This document shows positions 22,401-56,679 of a stretch of 64,000 nucleotides of DNA, one piece after another. The translations under genes and the position numbers were made by a program. Below the pieces are notes generated by a model. That model had not been told where the DNA came from, made no database searches, and saw only the letters and a list, made by a program, of their open reading frames with translations. Position 1 is the first letter of the stretch, and every line of letters starts with the position of its first letter. Source of the DNA: Balanoglossus misakiensis (taxonomy: Eukaryota; Animalia; Hemichordata); NCBI GenBank assembly GCA_040954595.2, contig CM082588.2:1169935-1233934 (forward strand), written 5' to 3'.

Positions 22401-23828
22401 ACAACTCACTAGGGTGTGGTTGCAAATGTACGTCTTGAGGGTGATTGACAGAGACACAAATGAAACCGATCGCAGAATACATGCTCAAAGCAAGACTGAA
22501 ATCTCTTTAATATTAATAAACAAACCTTACTCAGAGGAACAGATGTTTTGATGATTTATGCCAAGTCAGTTGTCTATTTTTGCAAGAAACACCAAGGTTA
22601 TCATCAATGTATGATTTCACAGTGTGAAGAAATCTGCAAAGAAAGTGATCATCTTGATGCGATACTTACAGTTATCGTCGACTGTTTTCGTATCATCTTC
22701 CTCGGCAGGGAAAACCCGGGAGTATGGGGCTACGACTTGCTACACAGGAAAAGAAAAACAACAAGTTTGATAAAACAGTGAAAGTTTTTACTCAAAATCT
22801 GTGGATACTGGTTATGTGGAAATTCCACAATTTATTTTGGCAGAATGTGAAATCAATATCGAGCTATATTCATTAATTTCGACCTTTTTGTGAGATGAAT
22901 GTCTGGCCACGTTTTACGTTGACACGTTTTCGTCAGAACAGGACATTGGATTATTTTTTCTCTACAGAACACAAATGACAAATGTCACTGAATTCCCACT
23001 AGCTATACATCATGCATGACAATTACACATGAGATTTCTTGGGGTTCTCCGTGTCAAACGTGAATTTGAGGATCGTTTATTGAGCTTTGACATGTTCATC
23101 ACTTTCTTGCGTCACTGAGCTTGCTCCTTTATCGGCAGCGTGCTGTATAGGTCAGAGGTCACACTACCCAATTCTTAGAACTACACACCCTAATTTTTTT
23201 TCATGTATTAATCCTGACATTCTACAATTTATAGCTAAGTCCGGGTCATGGGTCAAAGGTTATCAGTGGCCAGGCTCCTAAGTTTCAATACACGATACAT
23301 TTATCACTGTATACCTGTGGGCCACCTTTTTATCTTTTGCATGTGAGGGACAAAAGCCTGGCTGTGTATATTTGACTTGACTGAGGTTCACATAAATCTT
23401 ATTTTCCATATAAAAAGTTGTAGATATATCAATTAAACAAATGGATTCCCTCAGGCATTTTGAAGTACATGTAGGCACGGCAACCCATTTTTTCCACTCT
23501 TCTGGGCTCTGAAAGGACAAATCTTTTTCATCATAAAACTGGAGAACTTCATTAATTTAAATTATTAATACTTCATTCAAAATTAAAATGAAGACAAAGA
23601 TGTGCAAAAAGATACAATGATTTTGGTTCATTCTCTTGTCAGTTTGTAAAACAGTTCTTGATTGGCCAAAAGGAACACATATAACAACCTGATTGGTTGA
23701 GCACTCTCACTCACCTTCTTGTTCTCAAAGAGTTCAACAGTGATAGTTTCAGTCTTGATGTCCACCATGGTGCCCATCTTGAACCCATCAGCGGGATCAG
23801 GCGCCCACACCTTCTGTGTGTCATCCAT
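10464..23828 (-). CDS. MYO6: Unconventional myosin VI, complete multi-exon gene
   Basis: Start [12 protein letters not shown] (exon 23715-23828). Exons 22670-22739, 21224-21297, 20631-20760, 19998-20103 (P-loop GESGAGKT), 19672-19828 (NNNSSRFGK), then further exons with switch II DIAGFE (~16269-16517), converter/insert-2 (~14443-14652), IQ (~14167-14320), ER/K-rich SAH (~13177-13662) and a cargo-binding tail with RRL (~11220-11361) and WWY (~10833-11105) motifs. Stop at 10464. Splice phases were consistent wherever checked. Confidence 0.97.
12280..12354 (-). CDS. MYO6: Candidate 75-nt symmetric cassette exon of myosin VI ([25 protein letters not shown])
   Basis: CAG acceptor after a pyrimidine tract, GT donor at 12279, phase 2-2 matching both neighbours; lies between the distal-tail exon (..ETLV) and the SEQVVAQK exon. 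Confidence 0.65.
14018..14166. repeat. 50-bp tandem repeat, about 3 copies, at the 5' end of a myosin VI intron
   Basis: CATCCAAGAAAAG recurs at 14043, 14093 and 14143, an exact period of 50. Confidence 0.9.
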
Positions 23829-26800
23829 GTTGGCTGATCAGATCTGTCTACAAATAATAAAAAAGTCGATCCTGATTTTATTATATTTGAAGATTCATGG
23901 AGATATTGATTACGAGTAAAATACAGATGGCACTGTCAGCCCACAGCTACATGTACTCTTTTCCCCGGGTCTGTACCATGATATGCAAGATAACAATATC
24001 TCACTACAGGGGAAATTTATTGGCAATGTAAACCTAGACATGTACAGACTGTTTTCAATAATGATACATACATGGGTACATACAAAAATGTAAATTGCCA
24101 CTCATGACCCGAGATGACCTTCCACATACATCCTGGTTCATGTATTTCTGTTGAATGTGGTCTTTCTGGGTATCAAACTTATGTTTTTTCATCTTGTCAA
24201 ACTAGCCGTTAAAGCTCACACATGTTACACAAACAATATGTTATTTTAATGTGCATGTACAACATATCAATAACACAGATGGCAAACAGTGAGTCTGAGA
24301 CTCATATCGATGAAATTTCCAGGATGTGAGGTCATGCAGAAGTCATAAAAATGACCAATTACATTTTATCTGTTATCTTATCAAAGCTTGTTTCTAGACC
24401 ACCTGGTGGTCATTTTCTCATATACAGGGAACAATACATGTACAGGCAGCACTGGATGCTTAGTGTTTAAGGCATGCTCTGGATCGATCAAACAGGTCTT
24501 CCCACAATTCTTTGCAAAGAGGTCGGGTCACTGACATAAGATGCCACTAACTTCTGCTAAAACCTGACTATTCACAAATTAAATCTCGACATTCAAGTAA
24601 TCATAATAAAGTTTCAATGCAGGAGTACCCAGAGGCTCCATGTTTGACATTGTGTGAAAGTCTGTCACGAATAACGTCCGATTGATCTGTCTGTCGGGGG
24701 TTAATAGAATCAAGAATATGTCAAACTAACTCCAATCCAGGTTTCATTTGCGAAAAACCACAGGGATGAGTTGCCATGGTTACATCAATGATGAAGGACA
24801 CAAGGGAAATGAAGTTAGCATCAGTGTGATGAAATATTTAAGCTCTTTTCATTTATGCTGATTTTCACCTTCAAGACATGTAAGTTGCTTGAACTGGATT
24901 AGCGGAAACAGTATTGATATTATGATCTATGTTTTGCAAACTTTCATATTTTAGATGAGAAATGTTCGTCTTCTAAATCATGACTTTTGTTCAATTCCCA
25001 ACCTTGCATTGTTTCACTGTTTTACTTTGAAGCAAGGACTTTTTATTGTTGGAAGCTATGTCCACATTTATCTCCACACTAGACTTATCCCATTGTCAAT
25101 TTATGGTATTTCATGGTCAGAATAGCATGGCTAGTCTATCAGGCTCATACAAAAACTTCAATGCAAATTATAAAAAAATATTTAAAAAACTGCATGTCAA
25201 CTGGAAAAGAGATTACTGATGATTTATTTTGCGAAATTATCCATGGTCCAGAAATATTTTCCAGTGCAATGGGATGACTGATAAGTTAAACATGAAAGAT
25301 ATGTAAACGATTAAACCTGACACTGCAAACTCTCAGAGGAAATCACCAACATATACCAGACTTCATTAGAAATGCACATCACATCTATCGTCGTAATCGA
25401 CGACTTTTTCATCATCCTCAAATGCGGATCAGGTCACCGTGATCAACGTTTGCCGACAACGTCTGGTGTTCTATTTCATGTTAACGTTTCATCCTTGAGT
25501 CGAACTGATAGTCTGTGAAACTGACGTGAGCCTCGTCGATTTTCCAGAAATCAACATCATCAAATATCAATTGTTACAATGCCTGTCAGCGAGGCATCCA
25601 AGTGATTAATGTTACGGACATACATTATTTAACACATACAATTTTGATGACTTATTTTTCAATGCAAAGGCTAATCTCATTGATACATATATTTGTTAAA
25701 TTTTCTAAAACATAAAATTAATTCTCAACTCTGAGTTATATAATTTATAGTCAAGGTGAGATACTGGTTCAATATACAAGTACACTTGCTCAGAAGGACA
25801 TTTCATTGACTTTTAAGAATTGATCTGTGTGGGCGATTTGCAGATAAATCCTTAGAAATGACAAATCCCTCAAGTAAGCTCTTTTGATGAAGGTGTGAAT
25901 TGTCAGAGCCAGTGAACAAGACACAATGCTTTCCTGTCAGTGAAGAACATCTAAATTGAACACGCACAAGACAGGATGCATGACCTGTTTCCATGGAAAC
26001 AAGTGATTTTTACTGTTTCCCGGGAGACAACATCAATTTGATAAAACAAATAAACGTATGACATGTCTATGCAGGCTGCAATCTACAAATATAGTAAAAC
26101 ACAAAATAAACAACATAACGGCTCTTGAAGAAATTCTCACTGGAGCATAGCAGATATGTATAACAAATACAGGTTCTGTTGGTTATAGAACCGTGTGATT
26201 CACAGAGAAAAGGACACACCCGTCTCTTTTGAGAAATCGGCCACCAGACAGCGATATTGTCGACAGGGCTTTTAATCTTCAATTTCAGGGTCCAGTACAG
26301 CTGTATGATTGATTCATTTTTGTGAACAGACTGTGTGGTTGCCTATTCCTGAATGATTCTGGATAAAAGAAGACGGTAATTCGGTGTTGTACATGGCTGC
26401 TGGTATTCTTTTATCTGAAATCTTTTGTATCATATTTGTATCTTTGTATGTTTGTATGTTTCTTTGCTCTATTGGCCTGTGTTCTATTGTTATGAATACT
26501 CGAATCGACTTGAATACTGGACATTCATTCTCACCCTTGGGTTAAAATGATTGCCACTACCGGTAAATTTTTTTTTCTCGCAAAACAAGATGGCTTCTTT
26601 AAAATTGTGGGTGTATCTTCGGAGTATACCGGTTATTTTGAACTTTGACCCCAGATTCACAATTATCTGATGCCTGGGTCAGAATGCAATCTGCTGAGGC
26701 TGATGCATTTAACAAATACCAACCATATCAACAATTACACCAATAATTCTTTGTTTCTGAAAAACTGTACTAGTATTTAGAGCACTGTCAGTGTGTCTGT

Positions 26801-32756: not shown

Positions 32757-35700
32757 CTAGATTCTGAGCAGGTGATTGGTGATATTCTCCCAGCTGGAGC
32801 CCAGCTCTAACTGATAGTAAATAGAAGGGTATGCCTTGTCCAATTGCTTGATCAGGACGAGCACAACTGTCAGCCGGTTTCTCCATTCACTTGGCACGCT
32901 GCCAGACAGCTTCAAGAGATCGTCAAACCACTGCGGCCACTGATTCCTTAACACAGACAACAGAATCACCAGGACAACCAACGCAAAAATATCATTGTAT
33001 GCTTTCCATCCTGCAAAAGAAAGAAAGAAACCATCACACAAAAGAAATAGCATTCTAATTGTTTGTGACAAGAGAACAGAACAGCCCTTGATAGAACACT
33101 GGCATGATGATGGTTGCCAAGGGTGATGACTTACCCAGAGACTTCAGTCCAGCATCCTCTAGTACTTGTATGATCATCTTACTGTTGATTCCAAATGTCT
33201 GGTCGACAGTGTCAGCAAATAACTGGTCAAAGCAGTCAGAAAGGTCTCTCTGTATTTAAAAAACAACACACGGAATAATTTTTTATTTTTGAGAGATACA
33301 AACAGACTGATGGATCCAAAAGTTCCCTTGTTTCCAATCAGCTGGAGATTGTTGTAATCAATGGTAGGTAGACGAATTCTTCCATGGGAAGTTTTTACAT
33401 TTTAAAAGAGGTGTAATTTCAAATTAACAGGTACACACAGTAAATATGCATGCATTCATACATACATGTGATCTATTGCAGAAACAAGCAATCTGCTTAC
33501 CTTCTTTCCGAATATGTCAATCAGAACATCAATTGTAGTCACAGCCTGTGGAGGGTCATAACAAATGTAGATTTTCATATTATGTTACAATGACATATCG
33601 GCAGTATATAATCTCTTTCTTCAACTACAAGAATTTCAGTTAAAAATAAACAATATATTCAGTGGTGATCATAATTAACGTCTGCATTTCAATTTCTTTT
33701 TACCGGTAATAAAACATTAAATCAAACACCAAACAGACATCGATGACTAAAGTTGTTGACTAAGTTTAAATACTGGACTCTTTCTGATTGGTTGATATTA
33801 TTGATGAATCAAATTCAAACATCAGTGTGTCATGCTCTGATTGGTCATCTTGCAATTCTAAAATTGAACTTCTTACAAGCTTTTGTTTCTCTTCTCCCCA
33901 AAGTCCAGATTCAGGTCTTGTGATGTTTGGCAGGCCTGTAGTAGATGTCTCAGCTTCCATAGGTTCTGTAAAAGACAATATTTATAATGTTATTGACAAA
34001 ATACATGATATTTTATTGTAAGGTAAGTTTTACACGCAACTTGTATCATATATGCAACAAACCAGACAAGCCGGAGCAGTACTCTGTGGCCTACACTGTC
34101 CTTGTTTTTGTGTCACCTACTTGGAGATGGCGTCATGTTTTGGAAGGACACCCTCTTTATGGAAAAGGTGTATGGCTATGAGAATAGATTTCGTTCCCTT
34201 ACCTGGAGATGGAATGGCTGATACTCCATATAATTCAGCACCATGACGAATATCGTTATATATCCTATGCCTGGGCTTCCTCACTATTCCTGCATTACAC
34301 AGAGGTAAAGAAGAATTATTCACAAAATACCAGGATTTATGTCCAAGTACATCATACAGAGGAGGAACTTTAATGTAAGGTAAGATTTGTACGCAACTTG
34401 TATTATATATACCGTACAACAATCCAGACAAGCTTGGGCAGTACTCTGTGACCTGCTGGTCTTGTTTTCGTGTTGTCTCCTTTGAGATGAGGCCATGTTT
34501 TGAAAGGACGCCCTAATTCTTATGAAAAGCTACGAGTATAGATTTCGTTCCCTTACCTGGTGGTGGAATGGCTGCTTCCGGTACAGCATTAGATAGTGCC
34601 AGCTCAGAGAGTAATGACATGGAGACATCAGCATCAGCATCACGTTGCCAATCACCATAACCAAGAACTTCTTCATCTTCTGCACCCCATGAACGCCTCA
34701 TACCCACCTTTTTCTTCTTCTTCTTCTTACCAACTAAACTCTCTTCGGCGGCAATCAACTCCACTGGCTTTTCTGCTCGCCAACTGACAGAAGGCGCAGA
34801 CTGAGCAGTAGACTTCTCGCTGACTTTCCCGCACAAGAATGTGGGACCCCCTTTCTTTATTGCTGCATACACAGGATGTACTGGTAAAGAAGAATCGTCC
34901 AGATGCTTGCCACGTCCTCTTCCTCCTTTCTTGTACTGCAGAAAGTAAATTGAACAGCTTTGTCATGTTGCACTGGACACCCAAAAATGGTTAAATAGGA
35001 GTGGTGTAGTTAAAACATTTGATCAACTTTGTTTCTCTGTGTTTAGTTCCTGGGACTCGATTCACAAACATGTTGATACCATGAGTAAAAATATTTATAT
35101 TTCTGTGTTTTTTAAAGTGTTTGATTCAAATATACCAGTCCACGAATTTTGTTTCCTCTAATCAACAGAATAACAGGGAAACGATCAACAGTCGATTTTT
35201 GAGCACATGAAATGTGAATCAAAAATAAGGTTAAATCTTATTCACCACACAACATCTACAGGGATCTAAGATACTATTACATAGTGTATTTAGCTGGTTT
35301 TAGTTATGAGAACTACACAACATGTATTAGAAGCTATTTACAGTTGCAAAGAAAGAGCGTAGCTAGGTTTATTTATGAGATAAATTCTTCTACATACATG
35401 TACCAGTGTGGGAGATGCGACAGATCGTGCTAAAATCTGTGAGGATTTTAGATTTTTTTTCTGTGTTTCCTTTTCAGTGTCAGAGCTTTCAGCAAGGACA
35501 GTTTTTCCGCGGAACTTTCGTGGTTTTATCAGAGGTTTTTGTTTGTCTGCTTCATCGCGTTCCTGCTTTTCAGAAGTTGCTGGTTGGTGTTTTGCTGGAA
35601 TGGGTAGGTCTGCAGTGGACACACTGGGTAAAATCGATCGGTACATTTCTGGTTCAAAGGGCTTCAAATAACTGAGATCTGCAGTCTCCATTGGAGTTGA

Positions 35701-38700
35701 TGTAACAGCTGCAGTTCCATGGTGATCCTGGACCGCAGCACTGGAACCAAATCCAAGGGCACTAACACTTCCAGGTGATGGCTGAGTCGCAGTACCAAAA
35801 GTGATGAACCCAGATGAACTTTCCCCTGTTGGCTGCTGAGTTGCAGCACCCAATCTCACACTAGAGCCACCCCCAGATATTGACTGCACTGCAGCACCAA
35901 AACCAAACCCTGCTGCAGGCCCAGATATTGGCTGAGGTGCAGCTCCAAAACCACACGGTGCTGCCACTGCAGACCCGAATGCACTGCTGCCACTTGACTG
36001 CAACGGTGCAGAACCAAACCGGAGCCCAGCTGAACCTCGTTGTTTGCTTAAAAAGCGGTAACTCATGGCCTGTTCATCAGACACTGAATTAGTTCGTGGT
36101 GGTCCTCGTGGTGGTGGTGGTGGTGGTCGCTGTGCTTCTGATCGGAAATCCACAGCTCTCTGATCAGACACTGGTGCATCTTTTGGCTGCAGTGGAGGCC
36201 GAGGGGGCGGCAACAGGGACAACTCTGATTTATCTGATTCTAACTCTCTTTCACCGCTTTCGTCAGATGACAGTTCTTCATTCAATCTTGACTGCACAGA
36301 CATGTACAGTTGTTGCATCTGTTGTTGTTGTTGTGGCACTGGTAGTGTAGAACTCGGTGAATATGCCTTCCTTGGTGGTAGCAATCTCTGTGCTTTGACT
36401 GGTGCTCTTGCTGGCATTGGTGGTGCTTCAGCGTATGGTGGTGGTGGTGGTGGGGCACCTATATGTGATAATTGTGGTGGTGGTGGTGGTGGTGATGGTG
36501 GTGGTGGTGGTGCTAATAATTCTGCCTCATCAGGTGATGTCGGCGTTTGTAGGGCACGCACTGTAATTCCCCTGGATGGCACTGCTCCTGCTGGAACTGG
36601 TGGCACTGTAGTTTTTTTCACTGGTGGTGGTGGTGGTGGTGGTAGTGGTGAATACTTCTTAATGATGTCCCTCCTTGTTGCACCCAGCACAGCAGCTGCA
36701 GGTCTTGCAATTGGTATCGGTCGTGCTTGCGATCTTCTGGTTGCAGATGCTTTTGCAAAGCCTGTGGTTGGTGGCGATGGTGGTGAGGGTGCTTCATATA
36801 GTTCTGACTGTACCAGAAATGACTCTGCAACATAAAATAAAATGACACTGGCAGAACAGCTAGATCGACAACAAACAAGCATATAAACAGTAAACAAATA
36901 AATGCATCACTTCTAGTCAGTTTAATTCTCTTACCACCGAGGGGCTGATGCTTAAACCTGTGGGAAAAATTACAGCAACTCTCGATCCCTACAGAATTTG
37001 ATCTAGTACTGTCATACATAAACTCAAGTACACTGTCCAAACTTGGGTAATAAATACATGTACCGTAGTTACACACACGCACACAGACAAATGATCGCAT
37101 AACCGCGGCCACCCCCACCCACTGGTATATGCATGTAGTGGTAACAAGCAGGAGACAACTACACCATCATTGTCCAGTAAAATTCTATGCTTTTCCCTGA
37201 CCCAGATAATATTCATATCACCCATGTAGAAAGTAATATTTACCTCGTTTCGCAGGTTTAGGAGGTGCACCTCGCTTCTTCGAAGTAGTATAGTCGGCGT
37301 CACCAAATAGACCAAAACCCATATCTTCATCAGATGACTCCTCTGATAGACCAAAAACCGTATTTTCATAACATGACGGGTCTGGTGATTCTTCTATTAC
37401 ACAATGAAAATGAAGACGAAATTTCAGGATTTTAAACACTACTTTGCTTTAGAATTGCTGGCATGCTGTCTATTCATTCAAAAAAATAAATAAAAGATAC
37501 ACCCAGATAATGATCTGGCATTGAACTTAAAGACAAGACCAACAAAAAATTATGGTTGTGACAATAAAGAACTTTTCAACTGGGTATTTATAAACACTTT
37601 CACTTTCTTTTTTCCCCGGTTCCTTAAAATTTGAAAGCCACACTTTGTAACATCACAGACAGTAGAATTAGAGATCTAACCATCTTTAATATACAGTATT
37701 AGACATACCTTCTTTGGGTTTGGGTTTGGATTTTACACCTAGCTCCTTGAAAACAGCGGACATTTCTTCTATTACGTTCATGTAAATGAAAAAAAAATGT
37801 TTTGGATAAAGTTGTTTTCACATCCTTGTTCACACTGTGTCAATGGCATGTTTAACTATTATGATTTATCCCCAACTCCAAATTCACATGTGAAAGAAAG
37901 ACTTTGGCCATTAAAATGACAAATCTGGAAGATTATGCACCTCAACAACTTGTGACCAGATGGCAAATTACGTACCTCGTTCTTGCACAGGCTTGATCTC
38001 GGTTTCCAACTTCGCAGGGAAATCATCAGAACACATGACTTTTCAAGATAAAAAACAGAAGAGGTTACAAGTGGACATTTCTCACCCTGATGTTGGGTTT
38101 AGCCTTTGCTTGTACAATCAAATCTGTGTTAATAGTGGCCACCTTTTGAAATATGTTACAGTTCCTATGCAATTAATTTACATGTGGATTAATTGACTTG
38201 TCTGTAAAGGCCACCTGTCTATAAAGGCCACATTGGGATAGTATTCAGTTGATTTTAATGTGCAATATACACACTGAAACATATGTGTGGTGCATTCTTA
38301 ATAAATGGATAATATAAAACAACTTTGCATACAATCGTCAGCCAAATTTGGCAGAGTCCAGTCAGTGCGGTGGCTATACCCTATCATCCCACCACCTAGA
38401 AGAAAAAATGATTTGGATTATTTTTTATTATGCTTTAGTGGTAAGAATTATGACAATGGCTACGTCATGTGACACAAACGAATGTGGGGGAGGGGTGTTC
38501 TAGTGTAAGTTTGTTTTATGTATGTTTAGGGGGGTCCTGGTCAAAGGGATTCACGTTGCACAGATTAAAGTCACTTACCACTTAACCTCTGTAGCTGTGG
38601 AGGTCTAGCTGGCACCTGGTAATAGAGAAATATACAATGTTAAATGAGTTAAAGAGAAATCAAGAGCATTAGCATTAGATGACTGAATATTTGCTCGTTT

Positions 38701-41700
38701 TCCCCAAACCATTGGCTAGATCAATGTCTGACCTGACCGAAGGAATATTACATCCATACAGATCCATCGTTTGAGGGCACTTCCTATGCTTTGGGTGTAG
38801 GGCGCACCCTTGAATGTACGATCTTTCTGTCAGCAGAAAAAAAACTGTGATAAACATTTCTTACCAGTGGCTGTTTATCGGCTTCTCTTGTTGATTTCAA
38901 ATCTCGGCGTGATAGTTTACGAGTTCTTACTACAAGAAGCAGATAGGTAAATTTTGTCATTTCTATATTATATGATGACATATTGCTTACTTCAATACCA
39001 GAATAGGTTTGTAAATTTGTTAACTATATTAGTTGCAAACATTAATTGACTTGGTGGCAACATCTACAGTCAAAAAAGCAATAAATCAAATAGCAAGATG
39101 TCTGGAAACCAATCGATTATATCACCAGTGAAACTAATAGCTTCTGATAAAGAGAGAACGCTAACATATTTAAAACTAGTCCAATAATATGCAACACTCG
39201 GCTGTCAATCTGGCAGCAGCAGCAACAAAGCAAACAGAATCAACAGCAGACATGAAAACTCACCTGGGGCACTGGCACGAGATAATGTGGGTGCAGACAT
39301 CAGCTGACTTTCCATCAGGGGAGGGTGCATCACGCTTCCCACTTTTCTCCTCCCTGTTGCCTCCAATCCGACATAACTGTCTTTCTGGCCCATCCCGACC
39401 ATGACACCTCGGTGACGGGGGCGGCCAACAGCTGTGGGGAAGACTGCTTGGGGCTGTAGTGGACCGACCAAGCCAGCTTTGGTCAGCATTGATCCACTGT
39501 CAATTAAAATTGGTGGTCTCTCTTCTTCCTCCTCCTCCTCCTCTTCTTCCTCATCCTCCTCTTCTTCCTCATCCTCCTCTTCCTTCTCTAAATTAAAGCT
39601 ACATGTATTTAAGCACAAATCTTCCAGGCTGTAATCACCGTCATCTATATCGCAATAATCCAGGAGCTCATCAACACCTTCAAAGACAGAAATATAGAGA
39701 CAAAATATAGAGCAAGGTGATGGAAACTCAAATAGTCATAAATGACAAAGCATCCTGAGGAATCATTACAGTGCCCTCTTTGCCAACTTAAAGCAAACAC
39801 TATTTCAGTCTGATTGTAATACAGCAAGTGATTTAATGTTGATTCCTTCATGGAGGTAAATCAGAACCTATAAGGGGTCACGATATAACCAATTACATCA
39901 CCTGAGTCAGCCATCATTGGAAGATCAGGCCGTGACTCCAGGATCAGCCGTTTCAACAGTAAATTCTGATGCTACACATTGCATTTACCTGTAAAATCAT
40001 TGAACAATTCTATTTCTATTGCTTTATCCATAAATAGGTCTCTTTCTGTTTCTTCCATTGATTCGAAAAACCTTAGAATAAAACAAAACTAATTAAACAT
40101 AGAAGCAATGCGCAATTATCTACAAATCTATGAGAAATAAAGCAACTCCCTTGAATAGTTAAATATCATTTTCATAAACTGTTGCAATATATGCATGCAG
40201 TCTTGAAACTTTCCCCATTGTGTCAGTCCAAGTACCCTACATACCAGACCAGAGAGCAAATATCCCAAAAAGTTTTCAACTAACAACAGCACTCTGCTGA
40301 GCTTGTTCATGGAACCACAAGAGAACTATAATGATTATAGATCAGACTTACCCTTTCAGTTCTTTCACTGAATCATTGTAACTGTCCTCGTTAAGAGAAT
40401 CAAGGCTCTGATAACATCCTGCAAATAACAATTGTAGTATCATCAAAAAATTCTAAGGAAAGCCAGACTGTTTTCAGCACCTGCATAGTAAATTTCGAAA
40501 ATGTAAATCACAGGGCGTTTGTTGTCTTTGTGATAAATGTTTGAATGGGTCCTGTCTGGACAATAATACATCAGAAGGATGGATGCCTATGGTTGAATAG
40601 ACTCATGTACATAGGTTATCCATACCCATCACACAAATCCCCTTCATCAATTTTTCCAAGCAGCAAATGATTATATGAGATGCTCACCATCTAATGTGTC
40701 AAATGCTATGGATTTATACTTTTCCGTGTCTCCCTGTACTTCCTTGACAAAGTTGGCAAACGAGTATGCAACCTGAAAACAAAATCAGACACTGATTTCT
40801 CTTAAATTTTGACATGTAACTTTTGTCGTCACAGATCTGGACTGCAGCTGATATCCACAGTTGTCTAAAGCTAATGTTTACTGGATGTGAATTTGGGTGT
40901 CTATTATTAACCCCCTTACTTATAAATAAGATAGGCCAACCACAATTGGTTATATTACAGGTGATTCCAAATGCATAAAAAGGGGTGTTGCCTACTTACT
41001 TGCAGCCTCAGGGGATGTGAAGGTTGTAAATCTTTGATGGCGATTTCATGGGCGTCTTTGTAAGCTCTCTCGGCTTGAAGGACCATGGAAAGATTCTCGC
41101 TGGTCTTTGCCCGCTCCAGCAACTTTTTGATTTCTTCTTCACCACTCAGCTGTAAAAAAGTAACAAGTCATTGTAGATGACACAGTCTCCACTAGACGAC
41201 CTGCTGTGGTTCAATAATACACTGAACAGTGAACTGATATGTAATAATGCAAATAACCACGGAGGAGTGACCATGAAATAAAAGACACAAATCTGCATGC
41301 AAGAGTATGACAAACTTCTTACTGCCACTTCTTTGCATGGTTTCTCTTCCCATCCAATGTAGGTCAGAATGTCGACATCTTCCTTAGCAACCAGCTCTTC
41401 AATGCTTGGTCCTCGAGGTCCCAGTAACTCCTCATCCTAAAAAAGTCAGAGTTGAGGAGAGATTTACACAATCATGATTGGAACATTCCTACTGAAAGCA
41501 TTTTCATCAGCGTTTAGATACCAGTGAATGACTCCAATAACATTTCTTACCTTCTCTCTGGTTTCCACGGCAACAAAGCTGGTGAACTGAGTCACTATAG
41601 AATACTCCTTACTGATACTGATGATATAATCTTTCTGCTCACTCTTCATTACCTCATGCTCTGTGCGATCCATGTCTAAAGTCCCATCCTCCCAATCTCT

Positions 41701-44700
41701 AATGATGGCACGAGCTGTCAGTTGGTGGAGGATCTTGGGAGACAAACAACATACCAAGAATGAGGTAAAACAAGATTTACCAATGTTTCTGTGCCTGCTA
41801 TAAAGTTGGAATGAATTACATATTACAATTACACTACATAGCCATTTTACCCTTTCATCACCGTGGTCCAATCCAACCCATTGTTCTCTATGGTAAGGTT
41901 GGACCTCTAAAGAGGGAACTGGGGGTGAAAGGGTTAACTTGCTTCTGAATAAATCTGCACTCATGTGCACAAAGTTCTCACCTTTCCTCGAGTGATGTTC
42001 AGGTCTGCAGTTGACACCATGGTTGAAACTTGTTGATGATCAATTTCTGCATTCAGTGTTGCCTGAAAAATTGTCAAAATAGGCCTGTTGGTATGATGTT
42101 TTAAGTCAGAAATGACAGCTGAACAGAAGCACCGATATTTTTTCTGTTCTGCAAAACTAACTTTAATCTTCGTCTAGCTGAGTACACTTTTAATTTTATT
42201 TGATTCAGAAGTAATTTGATCAGTTAACATTTACACACGAAGAAGTAGTTCAGGAAACTTGAAAATAAATAGAGATCTTCATGTATACCTGAGTACAGTA
42301 TGGCACAAAACCATAGACCACCTGGCGAGAACCACTGAATAGCGAGACAATCTGATTGGGTGCCTGGATGGGTTTGGGAGCGTCACTGTCAAACTGTTGC
42401 CAAGCAACATGCACTGATGTCAATGCTGGATGTGCTGCTTTCAGGAGTTGGGACTTCACCTGGAGAAGACAGGAATTGTGGGAAAGAATGACAGACAAAC
42501 AGACAGACAGGGAAATGCCTCTTAGAAACTGACTACATGTATCAAGTTCTACCCCATGCTCATATGGAGCAGAAAAAATCAAAGAAGAATGCAAGAAAAC
42601 AGAAAAGACAATCAGTTTTACCTTTCTTTCCCACTTTGATTTAGTTTTCTTGTCAAAGTATTCATACGCACCAGCGCCAACTCTGGCCATCGCCTGAAGT
42701 AAATGTCGGTTTGCAGTTGAACTGAAATTTAAAAAAGAACAAAAATATGAGAATATTTTTAATTTTTATTTAATCACAATTTAATATTTCCCTCCCAAAT
42801 GCTCAAACATCCAAAAGAGCGTGACCTCCCCCATGAATCCCCCCCCCCCCCAGGCCCGAAGAAACTGTCTAGTCCCTAAATGGATTTTACCTGACTCCAA
42901 GGGTAAACACCCTTGTGTGTTGATTACACCGGCGGATAGATTCCAGTGTCATGCTCTCATTGTTGATGTGACCGTCCGAGAGAAGGAATATGTTGCGCAG
43001 ACCGGTGCTGGGGGAGAGTTGGAAGAACGAGTGAAGAGGCCGCCAAAGTTCTGTGTTGCCCATGTCGCCTGTGTCGCAGCACAGCTGGAGAAACTTCCGA
43101 GCCAGTTTGTGGTTTTTCTCAGTTTTGGGCAAGCTGCTCGGGAACAGCTCAACAAAGGCTGAAAGAAATGAATTATTATTAACAGTTAGAATGTTAAATC
43201 ACTCTGAAATTCTTATCAGAATTAGCACATATGGCTTTTATGATACCAGAGCATCAAATGTTAGTCATTTCTAAAACTTCTGAAGTTGATTTGCTACAAG
43301 ATCTTACGGATCTGTAAACCATACTCTGTCAAAGCCGCAGCTAAAATGCCCCAGCACACAACCACTTACTGGTGCCAAAAGTCACGATATTGAAAGTACA
43401 ATTCTCAGGTAAATGATGCAGCAACAACAGCAAGGCTGTGAGTGCCGTGTTCAGGGTATCCTCATCCTCATCCATGGAATTCGACATATCTAACAGAAAC
43501 ACCACTTCATATCCATCCATGCTGTCGGCTTCAAATTCCGGGTAAAATGTCAACATACAAGCCTGTGTTGGGGAAAAAAAACATTATCCGGCATTCAGAA
43601 TCATGTTATCAACTATCTGTAACGAACTGGGTATTATCTTGTTCTCCCTAAAAGCACATTGAAATTCCTGATATTTAACTTGTCATTGTAGTCTGTACAT
43701 TTAGAGCCAGCACTATTATCATCAATGGACAATGATGTCTCCTGTGTGATATATGTATCTCACCTGACTGTCAACTTTATCCGGATGTTTTTCCACCCAC
43801 ATCCTGGGAACATGGATCTCGGCAAGCCCAACCAGCAGTTGGAAGCCATCGCCCAGAGTTGAGTTCTCATCCAGCGCCACAACCGCTTTAGTTGCAGTTC
43901 GCTGTAAAACAAGTGAGTCGCAAAGTCATCATTATTCATTCACCAACACTCATATCCTTTTTTGTATCTTATAAGTAATGATATGAACATGCACTGAAGA
44001 TAGTCAGACCAAATTGAGTCAATCCTTGAATGAGATTTCCACAAGCTATCAAGGAGTAACAAGTATCACACCAAGTCAATGCTTGCGAATAAAATCACTT
44101 GCTATCTATACATACTTACCTTGATGGAGATTTCATGAGTTGGTGATTCTATCGTTCGGATATCAAATGGCATTTCAACAGAAATTTGCAAGTGCACATG
44201 TCTGTCAGGATAATAAATATGTAATTCTTGTGAACCCAACATTTTGTACATATTTGCTATATTTTTTTAATTCATATGGATACTATATTAAAGTCAACAA
44301 AGAAAACGGAACCATATATAAGCCCTCTAGACATCACTTTCTCTTGACTGATGAACTCACCCTTGACCTTCGGCCACTTTCACAGTTTTCACATCTGCTT
44401 GAGTTTCTTGAGAAAGTGCAGAATCTTTCTTCCACGGTGCCACACTCCCAGGAAGTTGGAAATTAATCTTATCCCCGTCCACACTCAGCTCAGTGACGTA
44501 TGTAATCTTGATCAGGACATTTGCTTTGGGAGGCAGGTTGCCCACACTCACTGTGAATACATCCTGGTTGGATGAAACGTTCAAAAAATAACTATAAGGT
44601 ATCATGCATATTTATGCATTCTCATTGGTTGGAGTCAAGCATGTGACACTGCAAGTGTGATCTCATTGGCTATGGTCAGTCACTAAAATCAATGGATCAA

Positions 44701-47700
44701 ATAACATATAGGGGAAAAGATTAACACAAAACACAAATTACCGGAGTTTCTTCATCCATGAGATACGCCCCATGCCCCTTGCTGATGGCTTCCTTATATT
44801 CTTTGTGAGCAGTTTCCTTTTCTTTGACTTCACCAACAATGTGTTTGCCGTTGATGAAGGCTTCAAAACCGCACACTGCTGCCATGGTGTCAAGGGGAAA
44901 CACATACTTTGCCTCTATTGGTATGCTGCTCTCATTTGAATATGCTTGCATGACTATCACCTGGCAACAAGACATGATTTCTTCCCGTTATTCATCAGTA
45001 GAATTTACTGTCAGGGTACGTCTGACTAAACATAGACTATCAGTGAGACAAATATCTTTATGCACAAAACATCCATTATTTGTTGTGCATCAAGGATGCA
45101 ATGATGCATACATTTTCTATTCTCGAAGATGCCCTTAATTGACGGGTTTCACTGTACCTCCAAGACTTGATCAATCTATCAACTTACCTTAGCAACAAGG
45201 TCCAATAGTTGAGCTTTCACGTGCACCGACTTCAAGGGAACTGGTGCGTCACCACTTGAGACCAAACCTGGTTTGACTTTTGACATGGGATCAGTCATAT
45301 TCATAATACCATCCAAGGCTGGAATTGACAACAATTTCTTAGACGAGCATCCACATTGATTACTTGAAGATTGTATCCACACATAAAGGATATTACTTCA
45401 ATGTTAATATTTGGCCAATCTTAAAGAAGTACCGTATAGACGCTTCACAGTATTAACTCTGGTCGACTTCAAATGAAGACTCTTACCCCCATCCAAGTCG
45501 GAGTAACTTGATGAGCTGGACGAGTCATCAGAGCTGCTGTCGTCAGAATCAGAATCTGTTTCTTCGTCCGAAGATTCATCCTGACTGGACGTGTCTTTAA
45601 GCGAAATCGCTTTGGGAACTGGTTTGAGAATGTCACCCTGCAAGGTGAATTCAACCAAGTATCGGATTCGCTGTTGGTTTGTGTTGTACACCACAAACTC
45701 ATCATCCTGTGAAACAAAACACCACATGCAGTGGGTAGTTAGTTGCCATAATGTGAAGAGCAGAAAGATCTTGTTAGGACAAGACCCAAGAAGCCACTGT
45801 GAAATTAGCAAATCCTGAAGAGTTGTGACCTAAAGACATAAAAACATAAGTCATAGCCTATTTAGAAAGAACAGATCTCACTTTGAAATCTGACGGTTTC
45901 AGGTCGGTTCCCTTGACGCCTTGAACACTGTTGTACCCATCTGGTGGCGCTGTCATATTGGTGTCAGATTTGTACATCTCTTGGCACTTCCCTAGAGCCA
46001 CATCAGCCACAACCATCCATCTGGTACCTCTCACCTGATTGGGCGAGCTGTACTTGGCACTTGTGCTGTAAAGACAAAAATAAACATGTCAACTTACCTT
46101 AGAGGCCTCACCTTATTCTTGGTGTGTGGTCCACTAAATGTAACGTATAAACAAGTAGTGGCTACAGATAACAATCACCTTGCAATCTGCACCTTGTGAA
46201 AACAACTAACACCCACACAAATGCAAATATATGGTTTGTACCAAGTTTTCAGCCACAGGAAGATTTTTTACCTTGATGAGTCAGTGAAGTATATTCCATG
46301 GCCGAGCATTCCCGGATCAGTTCGTTTTCCACCAAAGTCATCCACCACTACTTTGGGTAATAACAAGCCTCTATAAAACACAAATATTAAACCAGATTAA
46401 CATGACATGTAGATTCAACTTAATTTCACTACTTAATTGTTACATTTTAATGACAAAATTTGACTTCAAGAAAATTGCTTCACTTTTTTCTGACTTCATT
46501 TTGAAAACACGTACTCCCTCCTACCTTGACAAAATTCCAACAAAGTTAGCAGGCTTGGATGCATGGAACAAGAGCCTGGAATCACCAAGATCTTTGACAA
46601 AGCTACTTTCTTCAACTGACCGGCTCACGGCATAGATGTTTTCTATATTCAGCGAATGGAATCTGTGATATAAATAATACACACATGAAGATTATCAGGG
46701 TTAGAACCAGACATGTTCCTCACTCTGTTCCTCATATGTTCACTCCCTCAATCAATCTATCTCTCACTTACTCACTCACTGCTGTAGCACAGAGATAATC
46801 TTACCCGTCCAAGAAAACCAAGTGTTCAATCCTCTTGTATTCAGAGTCACCTTTCTCAAGATGTTCAATGTGGCATCTTAGAGCATTGTACTTGGCTTTT
46901 GTACTGCCAACACTGGACCAGTTTGTGGCTTCATTCACACTGATGATGTCCCGTATCAGCTGTAAAAAGATAACACGATTACTGCTCAGCAATTCCATCA
47001 AAAAAGATTTGCCAAATATGATTTACAAATTTATATTAAGCCCCCCAAAAAGCTGATGACACTGGGTTTAGTTTACTAGTTGACAAATTATTGTACACAA
47101 ATACATATACTGTACACACACTCACGTACACACACACACAAGATTGAAAAAAAGTAACTGACAACTTATCGACTGACTTACTTGACACAAATCCTGCTTT
47201 TGAGCAATCAGACTTTTGTTGTCGATAAGTGGAATGTTGGTTTTGTGCGGAATGGCGCGTTGATATTCCTGTGTAAGACTTGACAGTTCCTTTTGTGTGG
47301 CCCCGGATTCAATGGCTCTCCTCAACTGTAGTAAAACAGCCTCTGCTTTCTCAACCTATATGGGTTTAATAAGAATAGTCATACCACCAGGAAAACACAC
47401 ATTTGGTAACTCTGAAAACGTTTGGAGTCTTTTTATTAAAATGTGAGAGTACTATTAAATGCCACTTACTTGTTCAATTTTTAATGAGGCCACAGGATTC
47501 AATAAAACCTCATCTAATTTCCCAAGAGCTTCTTGCCAAATCAGTTTCACTAGCGTAGACACTTCAGGTGAGAGATACTTGGCTTCAGTCGTCTCCAACA
47601 TCATCTGTAAAGCACAAACATGTGACATCAATTCGACCAATGAGATCATTTACAAAGTTCACAACACTGATTTTCTAAATATTTTTTGAAGTTTGATCAA

Positions 47701-49607
47701 TATAATTTGACATGACAGCACTATACCTTCCTGAATTTGCCAGATCCTATATACCTGGAGACCAAATCAAAGGATTTTGTCATCTTTCTCGGACCTTCAC
47801 TTCGTTGATTGTACAGGAAAGTATAGCATTCCAGAGCCTCATCAGCAGAGTGTAGGTAACGATACTCTCTAGTTCCGCAAGATTCATCCTTGTCAGAGAG
47901 AAAGACAACGAAAATTAGACTTTTTTTTAAAAAGTACCCTTTTTGGACATTCAAGATTTTCACAAACATTGCTTTATGCTGGATTGGCAAAGCATCTCTT
48001 TGGGGGCTTCAGCAGTAACCTCCCTATTCTTGCGAGAAGACTGAAGGGGAACATATACCAATGATTTCTGCTGCAACATATACAAATTTCATCAAAAGAA
48101 ACAATAACCTGAATAAAAAGTAAGCAGTATCTTACCTTCATTTCTGATAGAAGACCATAGTGGGTGACGACTCTAAAGTTATACTCATTGTCATTTGGTT
48201 TGTCTTTCAGATCATTCAGTGGTTGTACGTGGATCTCCATGACGAAGAAGGTCACCTCGCCACTTTTCTTCTCTTTCCTCTGCAAAAATGAACGAGGTAA
48301 AAGTTCAAGTTGAAATTATACAGGTGGGACCAGGCTTCTGTTGTTTACAGTGCAGGCTAGCTATCGTAAGAGGGTTGATATTAATGAATGATCTTCAGTG
48401 GAATTGAACAAGCCAAAAGTAACCAATGTTTCATGATCACAAGTTGACATATGATTTAACATACTGTGCTAAGTCACATGCTTGTGATAATGGAAATATT
48501 GAATACTTTCTGATGTTTCTGCTCTCCATAAGCCCTTACCTGTAAGATGGTACTTTTGGCAACCTCATACTTATCTTCATCAAAGAATGGTGCTGTGTCA
48601 TAGCCATCTCTCCAGACTCTAGTTCAACAGAAAATTGAAATATGAAAATATACTTTATGTGTGCCATGCCCTCCAGTTGTTATTGTCCCCCATATTCAGG
48701 GCCAATCCTCTAATAGCTAGAATACATCACATGATACTGCTGGACCAGTCAATATAGCTTGAGTTTTTGATTGACATTTATGGGCGGAGCAAGATAAAAT
48801 AGCAGAACATGTACTGTGCTACTGCAGACACAACAAGACTAGTTGATCATTTGCTTTAATGCAAACACAGACCTGTTTACTTTATTCATCCCATTTGACA
48901 CATGTCATGACCATACTCACTTTATTTTGTTTATGTTGAAAGTTGTCTTGACAGTTTTCTGTTTCTGGTCATTTTGCTGAAGTTGTTTGCTAGCTGTTGG
49001 GAGAACAGAATGAGATGGAAATGTGTTCTCGTAGTCCAAGCGAAGAAAGCAAGCATATAAAGAGTTCTAAATTTTGAATAAATTGTGCATCCCAGTCCAC
49101 ATCTTTTGACACTTACCTACAATCTTTCCAGAACTGAATTCATTGGATCTGGAGACTCCATACACAACATACGGATCAGCATCCAGTAAAGCTGCTTTCT
49201 CCACACAATCATGGATGAAATCCATGGATACAACCGGAATACCATACTTGACAGCTTGTCTCATTTTATAAGATAGGTCTCCTTTCTCAGGGTTGCTGAC
49301 CACCAGATACGTACTCTGGAATTATAACAGAGGATGTGTGACTATTTAACGAAATTGTTATGTGATTATGTCAAAAAGTGTTTTTCCTTCTTTTCTATGA
49401 AAGGCAAATGTACCCGTTGAGTTTCTTGGGTTGTGGAAATGACACCTCACAAAATAATCAGCGATATGTGACTTTCACCTTCTTTGTGATGATGTAACTG
49501 ACAACTCCATCATTGTTTGTGATCTTCTTCCGCAAATCTTGCTTCTTCTTGAAAGGGACACTGGTGCTCAGTTCCAGTGCAATTTGACATTTGCTGAAAA
49601 TTCCCAT
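32757..49607 (-). CDS. PARP4: PARP4 / vault poly(ADP-ribose) polymerase: BRCT - WGR-like - regulatory - ART - VIT - vWA - long insert - C-terminal domain
   Basis: Start [13 protein letters not shown] (49479-49607, BRCT). Catalytic exons carry LLFHAS (~46525-46662), GMLGHGIYF (~46272-46370) and [17 protein letters not shown] (~45488-45706). VIT: [47 protein letters not shown] (~44742-44960). vWA: [11 protein letters not shown] (~43371-43563), IFLLSDGHI (~42891-43158), [10 protein letters not shown] (~41551-41733). Last exons [10 protein letters not shown] and [22 protein letters not shown] resemble the recalled human PARP4 C-terminus (YPSICPRLELGNDWDSATKQLL). About 43 coding exons; a few small exons in 36900-39700 are uncertain. 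Confidence 0.95.
34017..34590. repeat. Diverged tandem duplication (period about 355 bp) of an exon end, splice donor and intron inside PARP4
   Basis: 34017-34240 aligns with 34374-34590, e.g. TGTAAGGTAAG..ACGCAACTTGTAT..CCAGACAAGC..GCAGTACTCTGTG..TAGATTTCGTTCCCTTACCTGG..TGGAATGGCTG. The exon ends translate AIPSPG and AIPPPG. Confidence 0.9.
35404..36824 (-). CDS. PARP4: PARP4 large low-complexity exon: polyproline tracts followed by FG/GFG-rich repeats
   Basis: Within ORF 35338-36897. GT donor after ..ASPTL (phase 0) fits the next exon, YKKGGRGRG (34557-34935). The 5' boundary is approximate. Confidence 0.85.
37244..37393 (-). CDS. PARP4: PARP4 exon carrying a ribosomal P-protein C-terminal-like motif, [15 protein letters not shown] (37299-37343)
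   Basis: TAG acceptor, GTAAAT donor, 150 nt, phase 1-1, open frame. The P0/P1/P2 consensus is EESDDDMGFGLFD. Confidence 0.8.
39264..39587 (-). CDS. PARP4: PARP4 exon: poly-Glu tract plus actin N-terminal fragment (39322-39516)
   Basis: TTTAG acceptor, GTGAG donor, 324 nt, phase 1-1, no stop codon. Ungapped match to actin residues ~6-70 including [21 protein letters not shown]. Confidence 0.85.
40352..41149 (-). CDS. PARP4: Three PARP4 exons (41000-41149, 40688-40772, 40352-40418) encoding a 14-3-3 C-terminal-helix-like segment
   Basis: Spliced translation ..[25 protein letters not shown]|[28 protein letters not shown]|[22 protein letters not shown]. Canonical CAG/GT sites with compatible phases (0,0,1,2). 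These exons are too short to appear in the ORF track. Confidence 0.85.
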
Positions 49608-55400: not shown

Positions 55401-56330
55401 TACAACAGCAACATTTCAGACTATTGCAAGTGTAAAACTTTAAGCAATTTCTATGTAACGAACACGATACCCCCCCCCCTCCCTCTGAAAAAAGGGTTTT
55501 CACTCTCACAAAGCATTGAAGATAATACCTGATTTATACCGTCATTATGGGTATGTTTTTCACTTTTAATATGGACAAGCTGAAAGTTAAGAGTCACGAA
55601 TAGTTTCTAGAGTAAGGGTCAAACAGTCCTGGGTTGGTCCAAACTATGTCATTATGTGATCTTTTGAATATGAAATTTACATGGCGTCCATTCTGACCGT
55701 TACCCAATTTACATCGGATGCCGACAAAGCATTCTCTGATACGCCCTGATCTTTCGAAAATGAGAACCCTTCATAAGCTGAACATGAGAAGTCGTACAAA
55801 TCATTCAAAAAGCTAAAAAAGTAAGCCAAACTAGCAAACGCTTTTGCGGCGTTTTTTCTGTAATGAAATGAACATTTTCAACGGTGCGGCGTTGTGGAGT
55901 ACGGACCAGGAGTTATGTCGTCTGCATCTTTCTGCCCTTTTCAGATTTACTGACGACTTTGCTGAACCTATTTCCCGACTAAAGCAATAGTTTTAGAAGC
56001 GGTTCGACCCCACACCTCAATTTCGCAGTCGAATTCTCAAGCACGATAAACAATGAGCTTGTGGACAGGCTTATACTTGCATCCGACGCCATTTAAATTT
56101 TGATTTACTTGGCTTTTTGCTGTACCCCTTTGTGTTTGTCTTCTTCCGGTCTTACCTGGTGTTAACTTCGGAGAAACATGGCGAAACGGTGACGGTTCTA
56201 ACTGGTGTGCCTTGGTCTGTGGTGTCGTTGACGGCATGAGAGGCACACATCTTCTTCTTTTCGGCGACTGCGAGGGGCTATGTAAAGGATCAAAATCAAG
56301 TGTCCGTTTCAACGTTGCACCACAGGCCAT
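52447..56330 (-). CDS. AKIRIN2: Akirin, 4 coding exons, 205 aa
   Basis: Exons 56156-56330 ([26 protein letters not shown]), 54735-55094 ([26 protein letters not shown]), 53474-53545 ([18 protein letters not shown]) and 52447-52457. Total 618 nt, ending in the family C-terminal motif SYVS. This is probably the single invertebrate akirin; the symbol is that of the closest vertebrate paralogue. Confidence 0.95.
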
Positions 56331-56679
56331 TTTGGACTGTGAAGGCCTTACAGTTTAACACTGAAAATATCCAGTTAGCACCGCCTGTACACCCACAAAA
56401 ACAAGAAAAAGTGGTATTCGTGTTATTCCAGAATGTAGCTGCGATGTTCTCGACAAAATGAGACTCGGAATAACGCAGATGTTTCCAGATATTCCAACAA
56501 GGGCACCGCAGCTACGCAGTGAAATCCGACCAATTTCAAGATGGCCTTATTACAACCCAAACATTAGCAAGCCTCGGTTTCAATGAATGAACAACTGACG
56601 GTTTCTGGAACGAGAGGGCGCTTCAGGAAGTCGCGGTGCCTGTCGATATAAAGGAATGGAACTTTCATACAGCGTACGA

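What the first reader, a model, noticed from the sequence alone, without database searches (positions are those of the whole stretch)
37299..37376. Internal ribosomal P-stalk motif, preceded by its own decayed tandem copy
[15 protein letters not shown] closely matches the conserved P0/P1/P2 C-terminus (EESDDDMGFGLFD) but is internal here. 39 nt upstream lies a degenerate duplicate (TCATGTTATGAAAATACGGTTTTTGGTCTAT vs TCATCTGATGAAGATATGGGTTTTGGTCTAT, 26/31), translating [11 protein letters not shown]. All five differences change the amino acid, so one copy keeps the consensus while the other has lost it. It could bind eEF1A/eEF2/GCN2 or act as bait for ribosome-inactivating proteins (inference).
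Basis: partly seen in the sequence, partly recalled or inferred. Interest (0 to 1): 0.7.

Follow-up and report, generated by a model that had tools for sequence, protein, structure and literature searches.

The report
PARP4 bait region copies ribosome tail
The vault enzyme PARP4 of many animals carries, in one fast-changing linker, copied pieces of essential host proteins (here the ribosomal stalk tail, an actin loop and half a 14-3-3), which likely act as bait for pathogen weapons; this is untested.

Summary
The motif lies in a predicted in-frame exon (37393-37244) of a PARP4 gene closest to acorn-worm PARP4, and the 39-nt duplicate is real (26/31). The 'five amino-acid changes' mean little (P about 0.28), and an equally good in-frame acceptor between the copies may make the decayed copy intronic. 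The motif is not a one-off. It occurs, always internally, in 46 of 174 PARP4 proteins, from sponges to teleosts, doubled in four other lineages. All copies lie in one hypervariable linker between the ITIH-like body and the vault-binding end. That linker also holds fragments of actin (D-loop kept, ATP loop eroded), 14-3-3, ubiquitin, SNAREs, Snf7, calmodulin, HSP70 and Pol II heptads, swapped between close paralogues. Best reading: an integrated bait array, placed like the bait region of ITIH4 (0.55). Main rival: recruitment of host partners (0.27). No binding was tested, and this copy lacks the terminal Asp that ricin needs. The 14-3-3, actin and ubiquitin appendages were reported in 2014 as signalling domains. 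I found no paper on the stalk motif or the bait reading. The scan earlier noted a stalk-tail copy in a fungal PARP4/ITIH-like protein.

The parts
37299..37343 (-). Intact P-stalk-like motif [15 protein letters not shown], internal
   Evidence: Pfam Ribosomal_60s 76-88/88 at E=0.068; score 50/61
37344..37376 (-). Decayed tandem copy ([11 protein letters not shown] if exonic; part of the pyrimidine tract if the 37342 acceptor is used)
   Evidence: 26/31 identity, period 39; acceptor scores
37244..37393 (-). Predicted P-stalk exon, 150 nt, phase 1-1 (99 nt from the alternative acceptor at 37342)
   Evidence: AG/GT ends, open frame, acceptor 5.8 or 6.4, donor 8.3
39264..39677 (-). Exon with acidic tract and N-terminal actin fragment (about actin residues 2-70, D-loop kept)
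   Evidence: Pfam Actin 3-61/410, E=8e-7; PDB actins E 1e-19; phase 1-1
39989..41149 (-). Four exons (41149-41000, 40772-40688, 40418-40352, 40071-39989) encoding the C-terminal half of a 14-3-3 domain and its flank
   Evidence: Pfam 14-3-3 124-163/223, E=2.7e-5, first exon only; match to Ptychodera P0006; phases chain 0-0-1-2-1
37709..38826 (-). Up to four small candidate exons (38826-38738, 38615-38579, 38038-37976, 37768-37709) between actin and P-stalk exons; uncertain
   Evidence: open frames and compatible phases, some weak sites; no match among 121 PARP4 proteins
35404..36824 (-). Long Pro-rich exon with poly-Pro runs and seven FG dipeptides; positional equivalent of the rapidly evolving mammalian exon 30 (inferred); donor uncertain
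   Evidence: 17% Pro, five runs of 5-7 Pro; donor score 0.2; PMC4038475 passages
41323..45318 (-). VIT-vWA-ITIH-like body of PARP4; vWA metal-site motif DxSxS present
   Evidence: Pfam VIT, VWA; exon list; oyster orthologue folds like ITIH1 6fpy, E=1e-32
45487..49607 (-). BRCT, regulatory and catalytic PARP domains; H, Y and E of the catalytic triad present (triad recalled)
   Evidence: Pfam BRCT, PARP_reg, PARP; exon translations
32760..33249 (-). C-terminal helical domain matching the vault-binding (MINT) end of other PARP4s
   Evidence: tblastn hits from 42 of 121 PARP4 proteins and Glandiceps P0124 2202-2325

Best explanation
The motif is one exon of a hypervariable linker in an animal PARP4 that collects fragments of conserved host proteins, and the linker most likely works as an integrated bait array for pathogen toxins, effectors and proteases. 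Shown: the gene is PARP4; the linker lies between an ITIH-like VIT-vWA body and the vault-binding end; it holds a P-stalk tail copy and actin and 14-3-3 fragments here, and other fragments in other animals; the fragments keep recognition surfaces and lose the rest; the set turns over fast. Inferred: a pathogen protein that seeks the ribosomal stalk, actin D-loop, ubiquitin end or a SNARE would bind or cut the copy. It would then be held by the vWA body (as ITIH4 holds proteases), ADP-ribosylated by the PARP domain or confined in the vault, or the cut would release the enzyme from the vault. The tandem duplicate would be a by-product of birth and death of bait copies.
For: Motif in 40 of 120 invertebrate, 4 of 50 vertebrate and 2 of 4 unnamed PARP4 proteins; 27 of 51 invertebrate proteins with a complete linker; 52 motifs, none before the linker, none closer than 24 residues to a C-terminus (null 0.2%). 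Tandem pairs in Ephydatia, Aplysia, Mytilus and Elysia crispata. Same linker, 51 complete invertebrate proteins: actin 25, 14-3-3 9, ubiquitin 9, HSP70 9, multiple CTD heptads 6, VAMP 4, Snf7 4, SNAP25-like 3, calmodulin 3, WH2 1, none detected in 7 (Pfam positions). Actin pieces cover only profile positions 2-74 of 410; D-loop columns are 93% conserved against 65% upstream in 21 rows; the ubiquitin LxGG end is kept in 24 of 30. Turnover: at least 16 changes on a 66-row tree; two Dysidea paralogues are 97% identical in the core, 37% in the linker, with different fragments. The body matches ITIH1 to residue 606 and by fold; ITIH4's variable, Pro-rich bait spans 633-713 and trapping needs its vWA (PMC7793589 passages). 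The mammalian region is under recurrent positive selection (PMC4038475 passages). Free P-tail peptides inhibit a RIP (PMC6162817 passages).
Against: No binding, cleavage or infection result exists, and no RNA run was listed for this gene. The captured proteins are also host interaction hubs, so the list fits partner recruitment as well; that they are pathogen targets is recalled, except for the P-stalk. The window's motif has Gly where ricin needs Asp115 and no free C-terminus; after LF, 21 of 34 motifs keep Asp and 6 have Gly. The closest complete relative, Glandiceps P0124, has 14-3-3 and actin but no motif at the threshold. 14-3-3 and actin pieces go back to amoebae and Capsaspora (PMC4245714 section 3.1.2), which fits a stable housekeeping role. 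PARP4 sits inside the vault cage (PMC12280208 passages), which may hide the linker. Proteins counted include isoforms and congeners, and most are automated gene models. dN/dS was not computed for any invertebrate.
Confidence: 0.55

Rival explanations
1. Host-partner recruitment: PARP4 uses the copied surfaces to pull in the normal partners (elongation factors or GCN2 by the stalk tail, actin-binding proteins by the D-loop) as substrates or vault cargo, for example to modify translation factors under stress.
For: The same conservation pattern is expected. About 8% of cytosolic vaults enclose 80S ribosomes in Dictyostelium (PMC13100048 passages). Perina et al. read the 14-3-3, actin and ubiquitin appendages as signalling and cytoskeletal links.
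Against: Fragments are swapped between paralogues with 90-97% identical cores, lost in most vertebrates (4 of 50) and absent from 7 of 51 complete invertebrate proteins, which is hard to square with a fixed physiological partner. The linker is positively selected in mammals.
Confidence: 0.27
2. Tolerant linker: a disordered acidic region accepts retrocopies and exon fragments and drifts; the motif arises by chance from acidic tracts and has no function.
For: Patchy spread close to shuffled labels (16 changes against a mean of 19.6; 25 of 500 shuffles as low). Linker predicted disordered in the oyster model (pLDDT under 50 at 629-682 and 701-954; the alignment there is poor). The decayed copy shows loss can happen.
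Against: Shuffles that keep local acidic composition reach the threshold in 0.2% of proteins, against 46 of 174 real ones. F, L and F of the core are kept in 29, 29 and 33 of 34 motifs. The actin D-loop is 93% conserved from sponges to acorn worms.
Confidence: 0.1
3. Annotation artefact: neighbouring pseudogene pieces in introns are stitched into PARP4 by gene prediction.
Against: Exon phases chain without stops from the body through the actin exon and into the P-stalk and long exons. The same fragments with similar ends recur across phyla ahead of a conserved C-terminal domain. Two unnamed proteins with the motif (2563 and 2198 aa) are encoded on contigs of 8409 and 6831 bases, as expected of spliced transcripts.
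Confidence: 0.05

Closest known systems
Clade-5 PARPs (PARP4, vault PARP) with appended 14-3-3, actin or ubiquitin domains (Perina et al. 2014, PMC4245714)
   Same: Same family and same appendages: BRCT-PARP-VIT-vWA followed by 14-3-3 and actin pieces.
   Different: The section read does not mention the P-stalk motif, SNAREs, Snf7, calmodulin, HSP70 or CTD heptads, treats the pieces as ordinary domains, and offers no bait reading.
ITIH4 bait-and-trap protease inhibitor (PMC7793589)
   Same: Homologous VIT-vWA body (ITIH1 match) followed by a Pro-rich, species-variable region at the equivalent place; vWA metal site present.
   Different: ITIH4 is secreted, has no PARP domain and no copied host fragments are described in the passages read; trapping by PARP4 is untested.
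Integrated-decoy receptors: plant NLR-IDs, NLRP1, CARD8 (PMC11781737 passages)
   Same: Variable host-target mimics fused to a conserved effector protein.
   Different: No NB-ARC/NACHT, LRR or CARD; the output would be ADP-ribosylation or vault capture; many baits in series in one linker.
Ribosomal P0/P1/P2 C-terminal tail (Pfam PF00428)
   Same: Acidic run plus MGFGLF core; 9 of 11 residues identical to SDDDMGFGLFD.
   Different: Internal, no free carboxylate, Gly in place of the last Asp, no P-protein dimerisation domain.
Mammalian PARP4 exon 30 (Daugherty et al. 2014, PMC4038475)
   Same: Long disordered exon before the vault-binding end, proposed as a host-pathogen interface.
   Different: No recognisable homology was found there; in invertebrates the region holds readable host fragments.

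Membership tests
PARP4 (clade 5) | BRCT, PARP, VIT and vWA domains in order | tested here: met
   Pfam on exons; best whole-gene matches are Ptychodera and Saccoglossus PARP4
PARP4 (clade 5) | C-terminal vault-binding (MINT) domain | tested here: met
   tblastn hits of PARP4 C-termini at 33249-32760, E to 3e-20
PARP4 (clade 5) | ADP-ribosyltransferase activity and vault loading | not testable with these tools
   catalytic H, Y, E present in exon translations (triad recalled)
Ribosomal P proteins | Conserved tail sequence | tested here: met
   score 50/61; Pfam E=0.068, below cut-off
Ribosomal P proteins | Motif at the free C-terminus ending in Asp | tested here: not met
   frame continues past the motif; 52 PARP4 motifs all at least 24 residues from the end
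Ribosomal P proteins | N-terminal helical dimerisation domain | tested here: not met
   only profile positions 76-88 match in the window
ITIH4-type bait-and-trap inhibitor | ITIH-like VIT-vWA body | tested here: met
   oyster orthologue P0015 against ITIH1 6fpy: phmmer E=1e-17, Foldseek E=1e-32
ITIH4-type bait-and-trap inhibitor | Variable, disordered, Pro-rich region after the body | tested here: met
   26-42% identity against 81-97% in the core in 7 of 7 pairs; pLDDT under 50
ITIH4-type bait-and-trap inhibitor | Cleavage leads to a vWA-dependent complex with the protease | not testable with these tools
   needs bench work
Integrated-decoy immune receptors (NLR-ID, NLRP1) | NLR or inflammasome scaffold | tested here: not met
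   no such Pfam family in 26 window frames or 26 PARP4 proteins; it may work like one but is not a member
Integrated-decoy immune receptors (NLR-ID, NLRP1) | Lineage-variable fragments of host proteins fused to a conserved core | tested here: met
Integrated-decoy immune receptors (NLR-ID, NLRP1) | Effector engagement of the fragment triggers defence | not testable with these tools
   needs bench work

The most novel reading that the evidence does not exclude
PARP4 is an ancient intracellular bait-and-trap immune enzyme. Its linker is a library of copied host targets that each animal lineage rewrites by exon capture and duplication; an attacker that engages a bait is held by the ITIH-like body, ADP-ribosylated and caged in the vault. 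The linker would then be a readable record of the pathogen pressure on each lineage and would give the vault a function.
Probability: 0.35. Interest if true: 0.92.

Novelty: new variant of a known kind. Interest (0 to 1): 0.76.

Why it matters
The function of PARP4 and the vault is a long-standing open question, and the rapidly evolving mammalian exon had no readable homology. In invertebrates the same region spells out named host surfaces, so each bait gives a direct test: a defined peptide, a defined ligand class and an exon that can be deleted in frame. If true, it extends integrated decoys from NLRs to an ADP-ribosyltransferase and moves the ITIH4 trap mechanism into the cytosol.

Tried and rejected
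No whole genome is held. No RNA holder was listed; this is no evidence either way. The search of 1.84 billion representatives never ran, so non-animal and PARP-less VIT-vWA proteins were not surveyed. The 48-residue exon peptide found no PDB chain. PMC5086656 gave no usable passage on the terminal Asp. Complex prediction was not run: no eukaryotic elongation factor was on hand and an archaeal stand-in would pass by likeness to solved structures. Rejected: 'five non-synonymous changes show selection' (P about 0.28); 'the exon is skipped in orthologues' (the motif is in every isoform that spans its place in 8 clusters, except a Cyprinodon variegatus model of 1278 aa that diverges there; two truncated models also lack it); 'the motif is a P-protein gene or pseudogene' (no N-terminal domain). 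One origin against repeated gains could not be settled from an 11-residue motif. Literature searches that found no paper on the stalk motif in PARP4 or a bait reading: 25 of 34 listed; 17 of 19; 20 of 1328; 12 of 22; 15 of 17; 25 of 30; listings only, most subscription papers and all supplements unseen, including figure 1B of PMC4245714.

Full report
Observation. The minus strand at 37343-37299 reads [15 protein letters not shown]. The reference tail SDDDMGFGLFD is the conserved end of P2 (PMC2632931, start of abstract in the listing); the brittle-star PARP4 P0007 holds it exactly and served as the scoring reference. The window scores 50 of 61, and 0.05% of 2140 shuffled linkers reach 40. The upstream copy is real: 26 of 31 bases, period 39, with no such repeat in 20 block shuffles. 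All five differences are non-synonymous and all leave the downstream copy at the consensus, but 5 of 5 has P about 0.28 by chance. A splice matrix from 24 core exons scores the acceptor at 37393 as 5.8 and an in-frame acceptor between the copies at 37342 as 6.4 (core range 0.4-13.0). So the intact motif is in frame either way, and the decayed copy may be intron. No RNA run was listed.

The gene. Pfam finds BRCT, PARP_reg, PARP, VIT and vWA in order on the minus strand. The best whole-gene matches among 121 proteins are PARP4 of Ptychodera and Saccoglossus, which suggests an acorn worm or relative. After the body come exons for half a 14-3-3 (E=2.7e-5), an N-terminal actin piece (E=8e-7; PDB actins E 1e-19), up to four small uncertain exons, the P-stalk exon, a 473-codon Pro-rich exon and a C-terminal domain like other PARP4 ends.

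Relatives. Three searches gave 174 PARP4 proteins (the last two listed 120 of 270 and 120 of 935 hits). At a threshold reached by 0.2% of shuffles, the motif is in 40 of 120 invertebrate, 4 of 50 vertebrate and 2 of 4 unnamed proteins, in 28 named genera of sponges, a soft coral, an annelid, molluscs, echinoderms, lancelets and teleosts; among proteins with a complete linker, 27 of 51 invertebrate and 16 of 34 genus labels. These rows include isoforms and congeners. All 52 motifs lie after the body and at least 24 residues from the end. Four other lineages have two copies. Ten clusters were opened; in the 8 with the motif, annotated isoforms that span its place keep it, apart from one divergent C. 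variegatus model. Glandiceps, the closest complete relative, lacks it at this threshold.

The linker. The same region holds actin (profile 2-74 of 410), 14-3-3 (124-218 of 223), ubiquitin, synaptobrevin, Snf7, EF-hands, HSP70 (378-517 of 599), WH2, a Roc piece and Pol II heptads (Pfam on 26 proteins). Local searches place every such hit after the body and none before. What is kept looks like a recognition surface: D-loop columns are 93% conserved against 65% for the ATP-loop side (21 rows, 4 left out as partial or duplicate), and 24 of 30 ubiquitin pieces keep LxGG. The set turns over quickly: at least 16 gains or losses of the motif on a 66-row FastTree tree of complete proteins (near-duplicates dropped; shuffled mean 19.6), and 26-42% linker identity against 81-97% core identity in 7 chosen pairs, including two Dysidea paralogues with different fragments.

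Mechanism. The oyster orthologue folds with a confident body and a low-confidence linker; the body matches ITIH1 by sequence to residue 606 and by fold (E=1e-32). ITIH4 is cut in a variable Pro-rich region at 633-713 and then traps the protease through its vWA domain (PMC7793589, passages). Mammalian PARP4 has a disordered exon under recurrent positive selection (PMC4038475, passages; that it is the same region is inferred from position). P-tail peptides block ricin A chain (PMC6162817, passages). That 14-3-3, calmodulin, SNAREs, the ubiquitin end, the actin D-loop and the Pol II tail are targets or cofactors of pathogen proteins is recalled, not checked. Together these favour an integrated bait array (0.55). 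Every step from binding onward is inferred. Against it: the window's copy lacks the Asp that ricin needs (more than 20-fold); the fragments are also host hubs; vaults can enclose ribosomes (PMC13100048, passages), which suits host-partner recruitment (0.27); and PARP4 lies inside the cage (PMC12280208, passages).

What is known. Perina et al. reported 14-3-3, actin and ubiquitin on clade-5 PARPs and read them as signalling links (PMC4245714, section 3.1.2 read; figure not seen). The database labels two proteins with PF00428. Nine searches found no paper on the stalk motif in PARP4 or on a bait reading (listings only). Passages of a Dictyostelium VIT-vWA paper, a vault NADase preprint and a decoy review did not contain it. 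Earlier unchecked scan notes describe stalk and histone tails in a fungal PARP4/ITIH-like linker (e1-7554311), CTD heptads in a protist VIT-vWA linker, read there as a tether (e1-7376754), and an actin front piece in an Asgard macroglobulin bait loop (e1-5469528); I did not test these.

Verdict. A real, conserved and apparently undescribed feature. It is a PARP4, not a P protein or an NLR; it may work like an integrated decoy or like ITIH4. New variant of a known kind, interest 0.76.

Noticed in passing
window 54562-56354, minus strand: Exon-like frames that resemble akirin, a nuclear innate-immunity factor (name recalled; frames), just upstream of PARP4 on the same strand.
   Followed up: no
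window 20593-23837, minus strand: Frames resembling the head of an unconventional myosin, probably myosin VI (name recalled).
   Followed up: no
window 45490-45600, minus strand: Acidic, Ser-rich insert between the PARP and VIT domains.
   Followed up: no
window 37709-37768, minus strand: A 60-nt phase 1-1 candidate exon with a short helix-like acidic/basic peptide and a strong donor; no match among 121 PARP4 proteins. Could be another bait.
   Followed up: partly
window 35750-36030, minus strand: Seven FG dipeptides and a 48-nt repeat in the long exon; starfish PARP4 has GLFG-like repeats and one Elysia protein carries PF13634 (recalled as nucleoporin FG), so nucleoporin mimicry is possible.
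   Followed up: partly
window about 34200 and 34557, minus strand: The end of the 34935-34557 exon and its donor appear duplicated about 360 bases downstream (seen; alignment not well registered).
   Followed up: partly
ubiquitin pieces in 30 PARP4 proteins: LxGG is followed by Pro in 13 of 24; Pro at that place resists many host deubiquitinases (recalled), which would spare the linker from host cleavage.
   Followed up: partly
P0126, P0161, P0163: Further precomputed Pfam labels on PARP4 proteins: PF00595 and PF01394 (recalled as PDZ and clathrin propeller); positions not checked.
   Followed up: no
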